The position numbers were made by a program, and so were the translations under genes. From the human T2T-CHM13v2.0 reference genome, Homo sapiens, in NCBI RefSeq assembly GCF_009914755.1, contig NC_060932.1: a stretch of DNA of 64,000 nucleotides. One strand, 5' to 3'. Under the pieces are notes generated by a model. It had not been told where the DNA came from, did no database searches, and saw only the letters and a program-made list of their open reading frames with translations. Shown one piece after another: positions 1 through 52,461 of this stretch; positions within the stretch are counted from its first letter, which is position 1; each line of letters opens with the position of its first letter.

Positions 1-378
1 GTGACCCTACAGCATTATAGCAAAAGGAGAAGCCAAAGAAAATAGGCCCAATTTTAAAGTAATATTTCCTGCCTCTTAGCATAATTTATTTTCCATATTG
101 GTTTCAACAAGGCTAAACTATTAGGTAGCTTTTGTTTTCATCATGTGATTTGTGAGAGCACAGATACCAATCTCAACATCTCTCACTCTATTATCTAATA
201 ACGTCAGAGTGTCTACCATTCTATTACTTCTCAAAAGTTACGAATATTTTGGATAAGCAGAAGGTGTAGGATAGGACACCTCTGATTTTATTCCATTCTA
301 CTGTTAATCATGTGCAGTATATTCTACGCTTCTATTATTGCGTGTTTCACTTCAGAATTGCCATTTATTAAAGTTCCT

Positions 379-5460: not shown

Positions 5461-5815
5461 TGCTATGGTTTGACTGTGTCACCACCCAAATCTCATCTTG
5501 AATTCCCACGTGTTGTGGGAGGGACCCAGTAGGAGGTAATTGAATTGTGGAGGCACGTCTTTCCCATGATGTTCTCATGATAGCAAATAAGTCTCACGAG
5601 ATCTGGTGATTTTAAAAAGGGGAGTTTCCCTGCACAAGCTTTATTTGCCTGCTGCCATTCACATAAAATGTGACTTGCTCCTCCTTGCCTTCTGCCACGA
5701 TTGTGAGGCTTCCCTAGCCACGTGGAACTGTGTGTTCTCCATTAAACCTCTTTCCTTTGTAAATTGCCCAGTCTCAGGTATGTCTTTATCAGCAGCGTGA
5801 AAATGGACTAATACA
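5461..5815 (+). mobile_element. THE1 (THE1A-like) solo LTR
   Basis: TGCTATGGTTTGACTGTGTCACCACCCAAATCTCATCTTGAATTCCCAC ... GGACTAATACA; near 5-bp TSD CTTTC/TTTTC; ATTAAA at 5741. Confidence 0.9.
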
Positions 5816-7079
5816 TTTTCCTTTTAAAACATCCTTGTTTGTGTGTCTTTAATTACTTTCACCAATTTTTATAAGGTAATATCTATGAGAAGTGTGCTGT
5901 ATTTTTAGTGTGCTTAGCAGCCTCTAGTCCCTTGTATTTTGAAAAGAGGAAAATATTGTAGTCAGTTTAGTCTTCTTCTATTTCCATATTTCATTAAAGG
6001 TTTTAAGAGATTTACTTCAGCTGTACTCAAACTGAACTGTCAGTCCCAGATATGGTTCATGACTGTTGAAGGTTGGTTATGATTCTTTTCTTGAACTGTA
6101 TTTAGTCTTAGTTTTCAAGTCCTCTCTTTTAAAAAATATTTCTAAGTTCTATCTCAAGCTCACTCCTCTTTGATAATGCCATTGGCTCTGAAAGCCATCA
6201 TATAGAAATAAAGCCACTTTGTTAGTAACTTTCTTTGTAGTTTTTATAAATGTTTATTTTTTCCTAAAAACGGTAAACCTGTAAATACTTTCACTTTTTA
6301 TTTTCTTTGGACATTTTTCAGTGCTTTTTGGTTAAGAAGAGACAGAGAGAATGAGAGATTATTCTCTAGTCTTTTTCATTCATATTACTGAAAAGTATCT
6401 ACCTTTTGTTTCTGCTTCTCCCTATTACCTTTTTCTTCTACCTTAGCTATTCTTTCTGTTTGCCACTCAGTAAAAATATTCAGTTTTTAAAGAGAATATT
6501 ACTTTATTGACTTGGTTGCATTTTGAAATCCTTTTCAACATACTTCAGCATTTCAGCATTTTCCAGCTCTTAATAGACTTCCAACTTCAAGATTTTTAAT
6601 TTTTTTGTGGAAAAATATGTTTTCTTAGTTTCCATATTTCTGTCAAGTCTTTGTTTTTTAACAAAATAAAATCTTATATTTTCAAAATTATACCATTTTA
6701 TTGTTGCTTGTGAAAGTTAAACCTACAATCACTTTAATTTTAAGCAAGTTTTGCAGAGAATAGTCAAAGATCCTTTTTTAAAACATTTTTTACACATCCA
6801 AAATCTCTTGCTTGTACATCACTCTTTTTTATATCACTTTGTACCATACTCCTTTTTTATGGGCATGCTTGATTTCTGTAGCCAATGGTGGTAGGAAAAG
6901 CAGAAGAAATGGAGACATTATCTATAATTCTTTCATTATTAGGAAACTGCCACCATTAATTACTACTATCCCTACCTGTTATTACTAGTGAAAACGATTT
7001 TAAAACAATTGGAATGCTTACTAATATTTTGATGCCTTACAATTAATCACTACTTTCACTTGTCTTAGATAATCATTAC

Positions 7080-46890: not shown

Positions 46891-47816
46891 GAAAAGAAGC
46901 CCATCTGTGTCCAGAGATCAGAATAGAAGATACGACCAAAGGGAAGAAAGAGAGGAATATTCACAGTATGCTACTTCGGATACCGCAATGCCTAGATCTC
47001 CATCAGATTATGCTGATAGGCGATCTCAACATGAACCTCAGTTTTATGAAGACTCTGATCATTTAAGTTATAGGGACTCCAACAGGAGAAGTCATAGGCA
47101 TTCCAAAGAATATATTGTAGATGATGAGGATGTGGAAAGCAGAGATGAATACGAAAGGCAAAGGAGAGAGGAAGAGTACCAGTCACGCTACCGAAGTGAT
47201 CCGAATTTGGCCCGTTATCCAGTAAAGCCACAACCCTATGAAGAACAAATGCGGATCCATGCTGAAGTGTCCCGAGCACGGCATGAGAGAAGGCATAGTG
47301 ATGTTTCTTTGGCAAATGCTGATCTGGAAGATTCCAGGATTTCTATGCTAAGGATGGATCGACCATCAAGGCAAAGATCTATATCAGAACGTAGAGCTGC
47401 CATGGAAAATCAGCGATCTTATTCAATGGAAAGAACTCGAGAGGCTCAGGGACCAAGTTCTTATGCACAAAGGACCACAAACCATAGTCCTCCTACCCCC
47501 AGGAGGAGTCCACTACCCATAGATAGACCAGACTTGAGGCGTACTGACTCACTACGGAAACAGCACCACTTAGATCCTAGCTCTGCTGTAAGAAAAACAA
47601 AACGGGAAAAAATGGAAACAATGTTAAGGAATGATTCTCTCAGTTCAGACCAGTCAGAGTCAGTGAGACCTCCACCACCAAAGCCTCATAAATCAAAGAA
47701 AGGCGGTAAAATGCGCCAGATTTCGTTGAGCAGTTCAGAGGAGGAATTGGCTTCCACGCCTGAATATACAAGTTGTGATGATGTTGAGATTGAAAGTGAG
47801 AGTGTAAGTGAAAAAG
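46891..47816 (+). CDS. RIMS2: RIMS2 (regulating synaptic membrane exocytosis 2) large internal exon, 926 nt; linker between the Zn-finger and PDZ domains
   Basis: Acceptor CTTTTCCTTTGGTTACTTAG|G, donor AAG|GTAAGC; open frame (R)KRSPSVSRDQNRRY...YRSDPNLARYPVKP...RHERRHSDVSL...MLRNDSLSSDQSESVRPPPPKPH...EEELASTPEYTSCDDVEIESESVSEK(G), recognised as RIM2; phase 2 in, phase 1 out. Confidence 0.96.
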
Positions 47817-51700: not shown

Positions 51701-52310
51701 ATTACTTAATGTTCTGTGATAGTTAAGACTTCTATAGGACAACTCTCAAGAGCTTTGAATGAAAGTATAATTGTGGTCATACGGATGTGGTCATTTGTGT
51801 TGGTTTCACCTCTTCCAAGATCTGTCCTAAACTGAATGAAGCTTGTTTTCAGGGTGGAAAGAGTATGCTTAACTTGTTGAGATGTAATTTTGAGATGTAA
51901 TTCAGTGTCTCACTGAATACTGAACACCAATTTACTCATTTTTCTGCCAAGAACTCTTTCAGTGCCTATAATTTGCAAGGTGTTGGATTGGATCCAGTGG
52001 AAAATGTAGAAATGATTTACACATTTTTTCTATTCTGGAAATTGAAAATCTAAAATAACTAGCAATATAAGGCAATTGTACTAAACAGGTACCGTAGGAC
52101 TTCAGAGGAAAGAAGCATTAGTTGTATTTACTGATTTTTGCGCACTCTGTATGTCTTGTAACACTTTTCTTTTACTCAGTGTGATATAGTTTGCTTTTTA
52201 TAACACTAAATTGATCGCTTTCCCATACTTTCTGTTCGGTTAGGAAATTGCAAATTGATTTTTTTTCTTTTTCGTTTTTTGTGTGTTTGTTTTTTGCCTT
52301 TGGGCTATAG

Positions 52311-52316
52311 AAGGAG
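52311..52316 (+). CDS. RIMS2: Candidate 6-nt RIMS2 microexon (AAGGAG; adds Glu-Gly)
   Basis: ~65-nt AG-free U-rich tract, TGC at -16..-14, acceptor CTATAG|, donor GAG|GTAAGT; frame-preserving at phase 1. Confidence 0.6.
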
Positions 52317-52461
52317 GTAAGTCTTAGATTGCTAATGTCATAGTATTTCTGAATTTAAATATTTTGAACATTCTTCTCAAAGTTTAAAATATATTTTTTC
52401 ATAGCCTTAAAAAGTAATATTGGATTTGTAATTTGATTATTTTCTTATTGAGTAGTCTATA

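What the first reader, a model, noticed from the sequence alone, without database searches (positions are those of the whole stretch)
52244..52322. Candidate 6-nt neuronal microexon of RIMS2 with an SRRM4-type layout
Seen: ...AATTGATTTTTTTTCTTTTTCGTTTTTTGTGTGTTTGTTTTTTGCCTTTGGGCTATAG|AAGGAG|GTAAGT. This gives a ~65-nt AG-free U-rich tract, a possible branch point (TTGAT, 52255-52259), TGC at -16..-14, a TAG acceptor, 6 exonic nt and a full-consensus donor. The upstream exon ends in phase 1 (G), so inclusion reads G|AA GGA G| and inserts Glu-Gly after ...SVSEK with no frameshift. Established: neuronal microexons regulated by SRRM4/SRRM3 are 3-27 nt, mostly frame-preserving, carry a UGC just upstream of the 3' splice site, are enriched in vesicle/synaptic genes, and are often missed by standard aligners. 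Inference: this is a real neuron- or islet-regulated microexon in the linker before the RIM2 PDZ domain. I cannot tell whether it is already annotated.
Basis: partly seen in the sequence, partly recalled or inferred. Interest (0 to 1): 0.8.

Follow-up and report, generated by a model that had tools for sequence, protein, structure and literature searches.

The report
Likely unannotated 6-nt RIMS2 microexon
A six-base stretch deep in a RIMS2 intron looks like a tiny alternative exon, and almost the same stretch sits in the matching intron of the sister gene RIMS1, so it is probably real and old, though no RNA evidence could be checked here.

Summary
The sequence is exactly as described. A 65-nt AG-free, T-rich tract (52244-52308) with TGC at -16..-14 is followed by TAG|AAGGAG(52311-52316)|GTAAGT. 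It lies 4.5 kb into the 23.9-kb intron after exon 46891-47816, which ends in phase 1. Inclusion would insert Glu-Gly after ...SVSEK.

The layout alone is not beyond chance. My architecture filter passed 2 sites in about 248 kb scanned, and TGC occurs upstream of 49% of pyrimidine-rich AGs.

The new evidence is a paralogue. The homologous RIMS1 intron carries ...CTTTGGGATATAG|AGGCAG|GTAA, which would insert Glu-Ala in the same phase. The two sites are reciprocal best matches at 21/27, while controls reach 18 or less and 0 of 300 simulations reach 21. A 23-nt degenerate pattern of the shared block, built from the two sites, occurs only at these two sites in the whole genome. The annotated 12-nt RIMS2/RIMS1 microexon pair (EDKV) scores similarly (24/33).

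Against this, 0 of 509 RIM proteins examined carry the insert, including 85 human RIMS2 entries. No RNA-seq, VastDB or ortholog data were reachable.

Verdict: about 0.6 that this is a real, ancient cassette microexon. SRRM4 dependence is plausible but untested. It is a new member of a known kind unless a microexon catalogue already lists it.

The parts
46891..47816 (+). Upstream constitutive RIMS2 exon (926 nt). It ends ...SVSEK plus one base (phase 1) with donor G|GTAAGC.
   Evidence: only frame offset 1 is open. The hub annotation agrees; 59% identical paralogous exon in RIMS1 at C6:73360023-73360784, ending in the same phase.
52244..52308 (+). 65-nt AG-free, T-rich tract (polypyrimidine tract and AG exclusion zone).
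   Evidence: the previous AG ends at 52243; 39 T and 6 C of 65; no stable RNA fold (z = +1.22; 180 of 200 shuffles fold at least as well).
52255..52259 (+). Candidate branch point TTGAT. The branch A at 52258 lies 52 nt before the acceptor G.
   Evidence: it fits yUnAy. This is a prediction only and was not tested.
52295..52297 (+). UGC at -16..-14, a possible SRRM4/SRRM3 contact.
   Evidence: Baseline frequency is 29-49% at pyrimidine-rich AGs. It is not conserved in the RIMS1 copy, which has TTGTC at that place.
52296..52320 (+). Block conserved with the homologous RIMS1 intron (21 of 25 identical): GCCTTTGGGCTATAG|AAGGAG|GTAA against GTCTTTGGGATATAG|AGGCAG|GTAA.
52309..52310 (+). Acceptor AG (TAG), the first AG after the tract.
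   Evidence: TATAG is identical in RIMS1.
52311..52316 (+). Candidate 6-nt cassette microexon AAGGAG, which would insert Glu-Gly between ...SVSEK and Gly-Asp...
   Evidence: The RIMS1 counterpart AGGCAG gives Glu-Ala. The difference in the first codon is synonymous (GAA/GAG).
52317..52322 (+). Donor GTAAGT.
   Evidence: 8/9 with the exon end GAG. RIMS1 has CAG|GTAAAA (7/9).

Best explanation
Window 52311-52316 is most likely a genuine, evolutionarily old, frame-preserving 6-nt cassette microexon of RIMS2. It has a sister microexon in RIMS1 at T2T chr6:73,403,045-73,403,050. Both would descend from one microexon present before the two genes separated.

Proposed mechanism (inferred, not shown): the long unstructured U-rich tract places the branch point about 50 nt from the first AG (TAG). 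The near-perfect donor recruits U1 strongly. Because 6 nt cannot support ordinary exon definition, inclusion needs a tissue-restricted activator. The likeliest activators are SRRM4 or SRRM3 acting through the UGC at -16 in neurons or related secretory and sensory cells. Elsewhere the exon is skipped.

Inclusion adds Glu-Gly (Glu-Ala in RIMS1) to the acidic, Ser-rich linker 52-99 residues before the PDZ domain, without changing any other residue.

Sub-odds: real spliced microexon in some cell type, about 0.6. SRRM3/4-dependent given that it is real, about 0.6.
For: 1. The anatomy is as described.

2. A relaxed in-frame scan of the homologous RIMS1 intron returned 2 sites. One has nearly the same 3' splice-site sequence, the same 6-nt length, the same phase and no stop.

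3. The match is reciprocal. The RIMS2 27-mer (-15..+12) scores 21/27 at that site in 59,215 nt of RIMS1 intron, with the next best 17. The antisense strand and the rest of the window reach 17, 18 and 16. In 300 first-order Markov simulations the maximum was 20 (4 of 300) and none reached 21. The RIMS1 27-mer against the whole 23,906-nt RIMS2 intron scores 21/27 at 52296, with the next best 17.

4. The 13 bases at -15..-3 match 11/13. Of 34,634 AG sites in about 530 kb, only this one reaches 11 and three reach 10. Among about 1,900 pyrimidine-rich AG sites the next best is 9.

5. In 98,051 sense-by-sense pairs of AG-N(3..27, multiples of 3)-GT sites, this is the only pair with an exon of 6 nt or more, at least 70% identity, and no multi-copy (Alu-like) status.

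6. The pattern CTTTGGGMTATAGARGSAGGTAA occurs twice in the 3.1-Gb genome, at these two sites, both on the sense strand. The reversed control occurs 0 times. The pattern was written from the two sites themselves, so this excludes an interspersed repeat; it is not an independent test of homology.

7. Positive control: the annotated 12-nt RIMS2 microexon (EDKV, C8:104843903-104843914) finds its annotated RIMS1 partner by the same method at 24/33, against an antisense maximum of 20. So real RIM microexons do show this degree of paralogue conservation.

8. Both copies keep TAG exactly 6 nt before GT, and the first-codon difference is synonymous.

9. The layout fits published features. UGC is enriched just upstream of nSR100-regulated microexons, 65 of 72 are frame-preserving, and Rims2 is named among genes with nSR100-regulated microexons (PMC4387716, passages). 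[quoted passage not shown]
Against: No transcript evidence was available. The insert is absent from every protein examined:
- 0 of 120 best RIMS2 entries (85 human and 35 chimpanzee or gorilla, by my count of the listing).
- 0 of 120 hominoid RIMS1 entries.
- 0 of 120 RIMS2 entries from carnivores, pangolin, hippopotamus, manatee and others.
- 0 of 150 cluster representatives, of which 107 showed the exon end.
In all, 0 of 509 distinct proteins. The same annotations do carry the 12-nt EDKV microexon, in 32 of 120 RIMS2 and 107 of 120 RIMS1 entries.

The layout alone is near chance expectation, and so is the UGC. The RIMS1 copy has no UGC within 62 nt and a weaker donor. The exon bases are only 4/6 identical between the paralogues, whereas EDKV is 12/12. 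I chose the 27-mer window after seeing the alignment. Ortholog conservation could not be tested.
Confidence: 0.6

Rival explanations
1. It is a chance pseudo-exon. A T-rich intronic tract happens to be followed by AG, six bases and a good donor. It is never, or only negligibly, spliced, and the RIMS1 resemblance is coincidence.
For: The architecture filter passes another site in the same window (5772-5777, in a repeat). UGC is present at 29-49% of comparable AGs. None of 509 annotated or predicted RIM proteins carries the insert. My choice of comparison window was post hoc.
Against: The two sites are reciprocal best hits at 21/27 with nothing above 18 in controls, and 0 of 300 simulations reach 21. 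The 11/13 match is unique among 34,634 AG sites. The shared 23-mer pattern is unique to the two sites genome-wide. Both sites have the same length and phase and lie on the sense strand of homologous introns.
Confidence: 0.17
2. It is a conserved splicing intermediate or decoy rather than a coding exon. The last AG of the hexamer abuts GT (GAG|GTAAGT in RIMS2, CAG|GTAAAA in RIMS1). Splicing of the upstream exon (ending AAG) to that AG would regenerate a donor, so the long intron would be removed in two steps, as at a recursive splice site. Alternatively the unit binds U2AF and U1 to steer the choice between the two alternative exons downstream. Either way it leaves no trace in mRNA.
For: The AG|GT juxtaposition is kept in both paralogues. 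The introns are long, 23.9 and 50.6 kb. This reading would explain conservation with no annotated insert. Downstream there are two alternative exons, used in 81 and 39 of 120 isoforms.
Against: Both paralogues also keep a stronger TAG exactly 6 nt upstream as the first AG after the tract. A purely recursive site would not need that TAG, and the TAG would tend to produce the 6-nt exon. G at -3 (GAG) is a poor acceptor (recalled knowledge). The first-codon difference is synonymous, which hints at coding constraint. The 15 papers listed in my search for recursive splicing with RIMS1 or RIMS2 did not contain that phrase.
Confidence: 0.12
3. It is a real microexon controlled by factors other than SRRM3/4 (for example NOVA, RBFOX, PTBP or hnRNP H/F at the conserved GGG), or restricted to a rare cell type such as ribbon-synapse cells.
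For: The UGC is not conserved in RIMS1, whereas the G-run in CTTTGGG is. RIMS1 has GCATG at -48. PMC12871342 reports 51 non-UGC against 180 UGC-containing human neural microexons (passages). Absence from annotation would fit rare use.
Against: RIMS2 itself has the UGC at a typical distance. Rims2 is named among genes with nSR100-regulated microexons, although which exon is meant is not stated in the text I could read (PMC4387716).
Confidence: 0.24

Closest known systems
SRRM4 (nSR100)/SRRM3-dependent neuronal microexons
   Same: Length in the 3-27 nt class, frame-preserving, host gene in the vesicle and active-zone network, UGC shortly upstream of the 3' splice site, long U-rich unpaired branchpoint-to-AG region, strong donor (PMC4387716 and PMC12871342 passages).
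   Different: No expression or regulator data exist for this site. There is one UGC only, at a frequency expected by chance, and it is missing in the RIMS1 copy. The site is not found in any annotated isoform I could see.
The annotated 12-nt RIMS2/RIMS1 microexon pair encoding EDKV, beside the zinc finger
   Same: Same two genes. A paralogous pair in homologous introns, with AG-free tracts of 73 and 107 nt, about 75% pyrimidine, and paralogue match of similar strength (24/33 against 21/27).
   Different: The EDKV exon bases and donor are identical between paralogues and the upstream 15 nt are poorly conserved (6/15). Here the 3' splice-site region is conserved (13/15) and the exon less so (4/6). 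EDKV has UGC in both copies and a weak donor (5/9). EDKV is annotated in 32 of 120 RIMS2 and 107 of 120 RIMS1 entries; this site is annotated in 0.
Vertebrate recursive splice sites in long neuronal genes (recalled from the literature; no paper read here)
   Same: A pyrimidine tract followed by AG directly abutting GTAAGT. A donor would be regenerated after joining to the upstream exon end AAG. The site is intronic and conserved, and would leave no mRNA trace.
   Different: A stronger TAG lies 6 nt upstream as the first AG, so the expected product keeps 6 nt. The introns (24 and 51 kb) are shorter than I recall for classic cases. No lariat or nascent-RNA data were available.
Tandem (NAGNAG-type) acceptors (recalled)
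   Same: Three AGs within 6 nt (TAG, AAG, GAG) could give 6-, 3- or 0-nt products, all in frame in RIMS2.
   Different: In RIMS1 the middle AG would give a 4-nt, frame-shifting product. So only the 6-nt and 0-nt options are shared by both genes.

Membership tests
SRRM4/SRRM3-dependent neuronal microexon | Exon of 3-27 nt flanked by AG and GT | tested here: met
   6 nt, TAG|AAGGAG|GTAAGT.
SRRM4/SRRM3-dependent neuronal microexon | [quoted passage not shown] | tested here: met
   With the phase-1 upstream exon it reads GAA GGA and leaves the next codon intact.
SRRM4/SRRM3-dependent neuronal microexon | UGC motif shortly upstream of the 3' splice site | tested here: inconclusive
   Present at -16..-14. 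However, 66 of 225 pyrimidine-rich AGs in the window have one within -22..-3, and the RIMS1 copy has none within 62 nt.
SRRM4/SRRM3-dependent neuronal microexon | [quoted passage not shown] | tested here: met
   65 nt AG-free, candidate branch A 52 nt from the AG, fold z = +1.22. The branch point is predicted only.
SRRM4/SRRM3-dependent neuronal microexon | Deep sequence conservation of the exon and its flanks | tested here: inconclusive
   Conserved between the paralogues RIMS2 and RIMS1. No other vertebrate genome was available, so ortholog conservation is untested.
SRRM4/SRRM3-dependent neuronal microexon | Neural (or endocrine) inclusion seen in RNA | not testable with these tools
   No RNA-seq or EST resource was available. 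Supplementary tables were unavailable or uninformative.
SRRM4/SRRM3-dependent neuronal microexon | Inclusion depends on SRRM4 or SRRM3 | not testable with these tools
   Rims2 is named among genes with nSR100-regulated microexons, but which exon is meant is not given in the main text (PMC4387716).
Annotated RIMS2 coding exon | Present in at least one deposited or predicted protein isoform | tested here: not met
   0 of 240 RIMS2 entries and 0 of 509 RIM proteins overall. Only the best 120 entries per search were visible.
Recursive splice site | Pyrimidine tract plus AG directly abutting a GT donor that is regenerated after the first splicing step | tested here: met
   GAG|GTAAGT. The upstream exon ends AAG, so AAG|GTAAGT would form. 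However, a stronger TAG precedes it by 6 nt.
Recursive splice site | Intermediate junctions, lariats or a saw-tooth profile in nascent RNA | not testable with these tools
   No such data were available.

The most novel reading that the evidence does not exclude
RIMS1 and RIMS2 each hide a 6-nt microexon (Glu-Ala and Glu-Gly) at the same spot in the linker before the PDZ domain. Both would be inherited from a single ancestral RIM gene, conserved mainly through the unusual 3' splice-site sequence CTTTGGGNTATAG, and missed by RefSeq, UniProt and the microexon catalogues. The conserved G-run and the AG abutting the donor would let the same unit act either as a coding microexon or as a silent two-step (recursive-type) splice site, depending on cell type.
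Probability: 0.2. Interest if true: 0.65.

Novelty: new member of a known kind. Interest (0 to 1): 0.45.

Why it matters
RIMS1 and RIMS2 encode the central scaffolds of the presynaptic active zone. They are disease genes for a cone-rod synaptic disorder and a cone-rod dystrophy (PMC7273530, passages). A conserved, unannotated two-residue switch between the zinc-finger and PDZ modules of both proteins would be a concrete, testable isoform difference. It would also add a paralogous pair to the neuronal microexon programme and give variant interpreters a deep-intronic site (T2T chr8:105,018,296-105,018,322) where single-base changes could matter. If a catalogue already lists it, the value is smaller: the paralogue comparison, and a reminder that RefSeq lacks it.

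Tried and rejected

2. Irimia 2014 (PMC4390143): not held.

3. Supplementary tables.
- PMC4387716: 2 files held as text were searched, one file could not be searched, 0 hits.
- PMC7935315: 12 of 18 files searched, only two gene-expression rows for RIMS2.
- PMC7821500: 7 files, 0 hits for the symbol; its tables may use other identifiers, so this is not evidence of absence.
Catalogue tables that I could not see may already list this exon.

4. Full-text searches.
- 'RIMS2' + 'microexon': 7 papers.
- Six-term microexon/SRRM set: 103 papers, 30 listed.
- RIM2 splice-site terms: 35 papers, 25 listed.
- vast-tools/VastDB terms: 143 papers, 30 listed.
- 'Rims2' + 'Srrm4': 10 papers.
- 'Rims1' + 'microexon': 13 papers.
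- Micro-exon/nSR100 terms: 255 papers, 40 listed.
- Recursive splicing with RIMS1/2: 120 papers, 15 listed.
None of the listings or passages I read describes a 6-nt exon at this position. PMC8355340 and PMC10078954 (passages) concern circRNAs and other exons. PMC3464207 (passage) reports a Rims2 splicing defect in Srrm4-mutant mice without naming the exon.

5. blastn-short of the site against the RIMS1 intron found only short chance words of 12-22 nt. The paralogue site was found by the in-frame scan instead.

6. A strict scan of RIMS1 (GTRAG donor, 65% or more pyrimidine, 30 nt or more AG-free) gave 5 sites, none with a length that is a multiple of 3.

7. The first version of the all-against-all site comparison was swamped by Alu copies. 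It was repeated with a copy-number flag. The pairs still flagged 'unique' in the three control orientations look like diverged Alu pieces; that is my reading from a recalled Alu consensus.

8. RNA folding of 52231-52350 gave no structure.

9. The cluster-representative search returned mostly intron read-through models (SEK followed by GK or GR) and no insert.

10. A DNA search of the genome with 52150-52400 hit only T-rich low-complexity stretches elsewhere.

Full report
OBSERVATION

The window reads ...GAAATTGCAAATTGATTTTTTTTCTTTTTCGTTTTTTGTGTGTTTGTTTTTTGCCTTTGGGCTATAG|AAGGAG|GTAAGT at 52244-52322. The previous AG ends at 52243, so the acceptor AG (52309-52310) follows a 65-nt AG-free tract with 39 T and 6 C. 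TTGAT is at 52255-52259 and TGC at 52295-52297, which is -16..-14.

The annotated exon 46891-47816 is open only in frame offset 1 and ends ...SVSEK plus one G. The hexamer therefore reads G|AA GGA G| and adds Glu-Gly without touching the next codon.

The next RIMS2 exons are outside the window, at about window 71723 (GDMDYNW...) and 71910 (GDSQKGK...). The site lies 4.5 kb into a 23,906-nt intron. It is 52 or 99 residues before the Pfam PDZ match, depending on the isoform.

IS THE LAYOUT MORE THAN CHANCE?

Alone, it is not. The window's + strand has 5,439 AG-N(3-27)-GT sites. Twelve of them have a donor matching at least 8 of 9 consensus positions. Two of those also have at least 70% pyrimidine in -42..-3 and at least 40 nt free of AG. 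One is this site. The other is 5772-5777, inside a masked repeat.

The window's - strand and both strands of 59 kb of RIMS1 intron gave none. So about one false site appears per 250 kb. A TGC in -42..-3 is found at 111 of 225 pyrimidine-rich AGs, and within -22..-3 at 66 of 225. The 'SRRM4-type layout' is therefore compatible with a real microexon but does not demonstrate one.

ANNOTATION

The large protein database holds RefSeq, UniRef and nr entries for RIM proteins.
- Best 120 matches to the upstream exon (85 human and 35 chimpanzee or gorilla by my count of the listing): 81 continue SEK-GDMDYNW and 39 continue SEK-GDSQKGK. None has SEK-EG.
- A further 120 RIMS2 entries from carnivores, pangolin, hippopotamus, manatee and others: none.
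- 150 cluster representatives, of which 107 show the exon end: none.
- 120 hominoid RIMS1 entries: none.

Overall 0 of 509 proteins carry the insert. Only the best 120 entries per search are visible, so mouse, rat, chicken and fish isoform sets were not seen.

The same annotations do carry a 12-nt RIMS2 microexon (EDKV) in 32 of 120 entries. The pipelines can therefore place small exons in this gene, and their silence here counts against high inclusion.

THE NEW EVIDENCE: A PARALOGOUS COPY IN RIMS1

The window's genome is searchable. The upstream exon has a 59%-identical paralogue in RIMS1 at C6:73360023-73360784. That exon ends in the same phase with the same ...SVSEK|G.

I scanned the following 59 kb of RIMS1 intron for in-frame AG-N-GT units with a pyrimidine tract and a fair donor. 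This returned two sites. One, at C6:73403045-73403050, reads ...TTGTCTTTGGGATATAG|AGGCAG|GTAAAA. RIMS2 reads ...TTGCCTTTGGGCTATAG|AAGGAG|GTAAGT. Over 25 bases, 21 are identical. The RIMS1 unit is also 6 nt and in the same phase, and would add Glu-Ala. The difference in the first codon (GAA/GAG) is synonymous.

Tests of the match:
(a) The RIMS2 27-mer (-15..+12) slid along the RIMS1 intron scores 21/27 at this site, with the next best 17. The antisense strand reaches 17. The rest of the window reaches 18 and 16. In 300 first-order Markov simulations the maxima were 16-20 (20 in 4 of 300) and none reached 21.
(b) The reverse test is reciprocal. The RIMS1 27-mer against the whole RIMS2 intron scores 21/27 at 52296, with the next best 17.
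(c) Using only the 13 bases at -15..-3, which my scan did not select on beyond pyrimidine content, the RIMS1 site matches 11/13. Among 34,634 AG sites in about 530 kb of RIMS1 and RIMS2 sequence on both strands, no other reaches 11 and three reach 10. Among about 1,900 pyrimidine-rich AG sites the next best is 9.
(d) I compared all 98,051 sense-by-sense pairs of AG-N(3..27, multiples of 3)-GT sites in the two introns. Nineteen pairs reach 70% identity. Fourteen are multi-copy Alu-like sequence and three are 3-nt sites at exactly 70%. The only single-copy pair with an exon of 6 nt or more is this one.
(e) The degenerate 23-mer written from the two sites occurs exactly twice in the 3.1-Gb genome, at these sites, both on the sense strand. 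The reversed control occurs 0 times. This rules out an interspersed repeat as the source of the likeness, but because the pattern was built from the two sites it adds no independent test of homology.

I chose the 27-mer frame after seeing the alignment. Allowing for that, I put the chance probability at roughly 10^-3 to 10^-2.

POSITIVE CONTROL

The annotated 12-nt RIMS2 microexon (GAGGACAAAGTG, C8:104843903-104843914) was put through the same sliding test. It finds its RIMS1 partner at C6:73287276 with 24/33, against an antisense maximum of 20. That partner is annotated in 107 of 120 RIMS1 entries. Real RIM microexons therefore do retain recognisable paralogue similarity of the size seen here.

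The pattern differs, however. In EDKV the exon and donor are identical and the 15 upstream bases are not (6/15). In the 6-nt pair the 3' splice-site region is conserved (13/15) and the exon less so (4/6). Both EDKV copies have UGC (-24; -25 and -13), AG-free tracts of 73 and 107 nt, and weak donors (5/9).

WHAT IT MOST LIKELY IS

The most likely reading is an old cassette microexon shared by RIMS1 and RIMS2. I put the odds at about 0.6.

Shown: the signals, the phase, and the paralogue conservation of the acceptor, the spacing and the donor.

Inferred:
- That it is spliced at all.
- That inclusion is tissue-restricted.
- That SRRM4 or SRRM3 act through the UGC.

The regulatory inference rests on published generalities. 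UGC is enriched just upstream of nSR100-dependent microexons, 65 of 72 are frame-preserving, and Rims2 is named among such genes without the exon being specified (PMC4387716, passages). Neural microexons have a longer and less paired branchpoint-to-AG region, and 51 against 180 of them lack UGC (PMC12871342, passages). My fold of 52231-52350 shows no stable structure, with z = +1.22.

The UGC is not kept in RIMS1, while the G-run of CTTTGGG is. Another regulator is therefore quite possible.

PMC7273530 (passages) says that one RIMS2 transcript contains a conserved neuron-specific microexon, citing Irimia 2014. I could not read Irimia 2014. That exon may be EDKV, this one, or another.

RIVALS

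(1) Chance pseudo-exon, about 0.17. The evidence is set out above.

(2) A conserved non-coding splicing unit, about 0.12. The last AG of the hexamer abuts the donor in both genes (GAG|GTAAGT and CAG|GTAAAA), and the upstream exons end in AAG. Splicing to that AG would regenerate a donor and leave no trace in mRNA, as at recursive splice sites (recalled; no paper read). This would reconcile conservation with the empty annotation. Against it, both genes keep a better TAG as the first AG exactly 6 nt upstream.

(3) A real microexon with a different regulator or a very restricted cell type. This is a sub-case of the main reading.

NOVELTY AND LIMITS

Microexons in active-zone genes are a known kind. 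Within what I could search, this particular pair is not described or annotated. The searches are listed with their counts under 'tried and rejected'.

VastDB, GENCODE transcript tables, conservation tracks, RNA-seq and the supplementary tables of the microexon papers were out of reach. So 'new member of a known kind' is provisional.

Interest is moderate. This is a concrete, cheaply testable isoform difference in two disease genes, backed by an internal evolutionary control, but it is not a new principle.

Noticed in passing
window 5772-5777 (+): This is the only other site in the window that passes the microexon-architecture filter (TCTCAG|GTATGT, 52 nt AG-free, TGC upstream). It lies inside the masked repeat 5561-5834 and upstream of the coding exon, so it is probably repeat-derived.
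   Followed up: no
outside the window: about window 71723 and 71910 (C8:105037723 and 105037910; L030): Two alternative RIMS2 exons directly follow the intron that holds the candidate. One is a 66-nt exon (GDMDYNW...SL) and the other a 225-nt exon (GDSQKGK...HSDK). They are used in 81 and 39 of 120 isoforms, and neither continuation was seen together with the other directly after SEK. The junction after SVSEK is thus already a site of alternative splicing.
   Followed up: partly
C8:104843903-104843914 (L016/L017) and C6:73287276-73287287 (L022): This is an annotated paralogous pair of 12-nt microexons encoding EDKV beside the RIM zinc finger. The exon and the first 6 intron bases are identical in RIMS2 and RIMS1, both copies have UGC upstream, and the AG-free tracts are 73 and 107 nt.
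   Followed up: yes
window 52309-52316: Three AGs lie within 6 nt (TAG, AAG, GAG). In RIMS2 they could give 6-, 3- or 0-nt products, all in frame. In RIMS1 the middle AG would give a 4-nt, frame-shifting product.
   Followed up: partly
L011:2997-3001 (C6, RIMS1), 48 nt upstream of the RIMS1 hexamer: A GCATG (RBFOX-type word) sits upstream of the RIMS1 copy. No GCATG lies within 120 nt of the RIMS2 copy.
   Followed up: no
window 52255-52304: The T-rich tract gives 87-95% matches to T-rich stretches on contigs C15, C14 and C6 of the same genome. These are low-complexity hits only; the flanks are single-copy.
   Followed up: no
proteins P0241-P0390: Many database gene models for RIM genes read through the donor after ...SVSEK into the intron (continuations GK... 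or GR...). This shows how often this junction is mis-modelled in automatic annotations.
   Followed up: no
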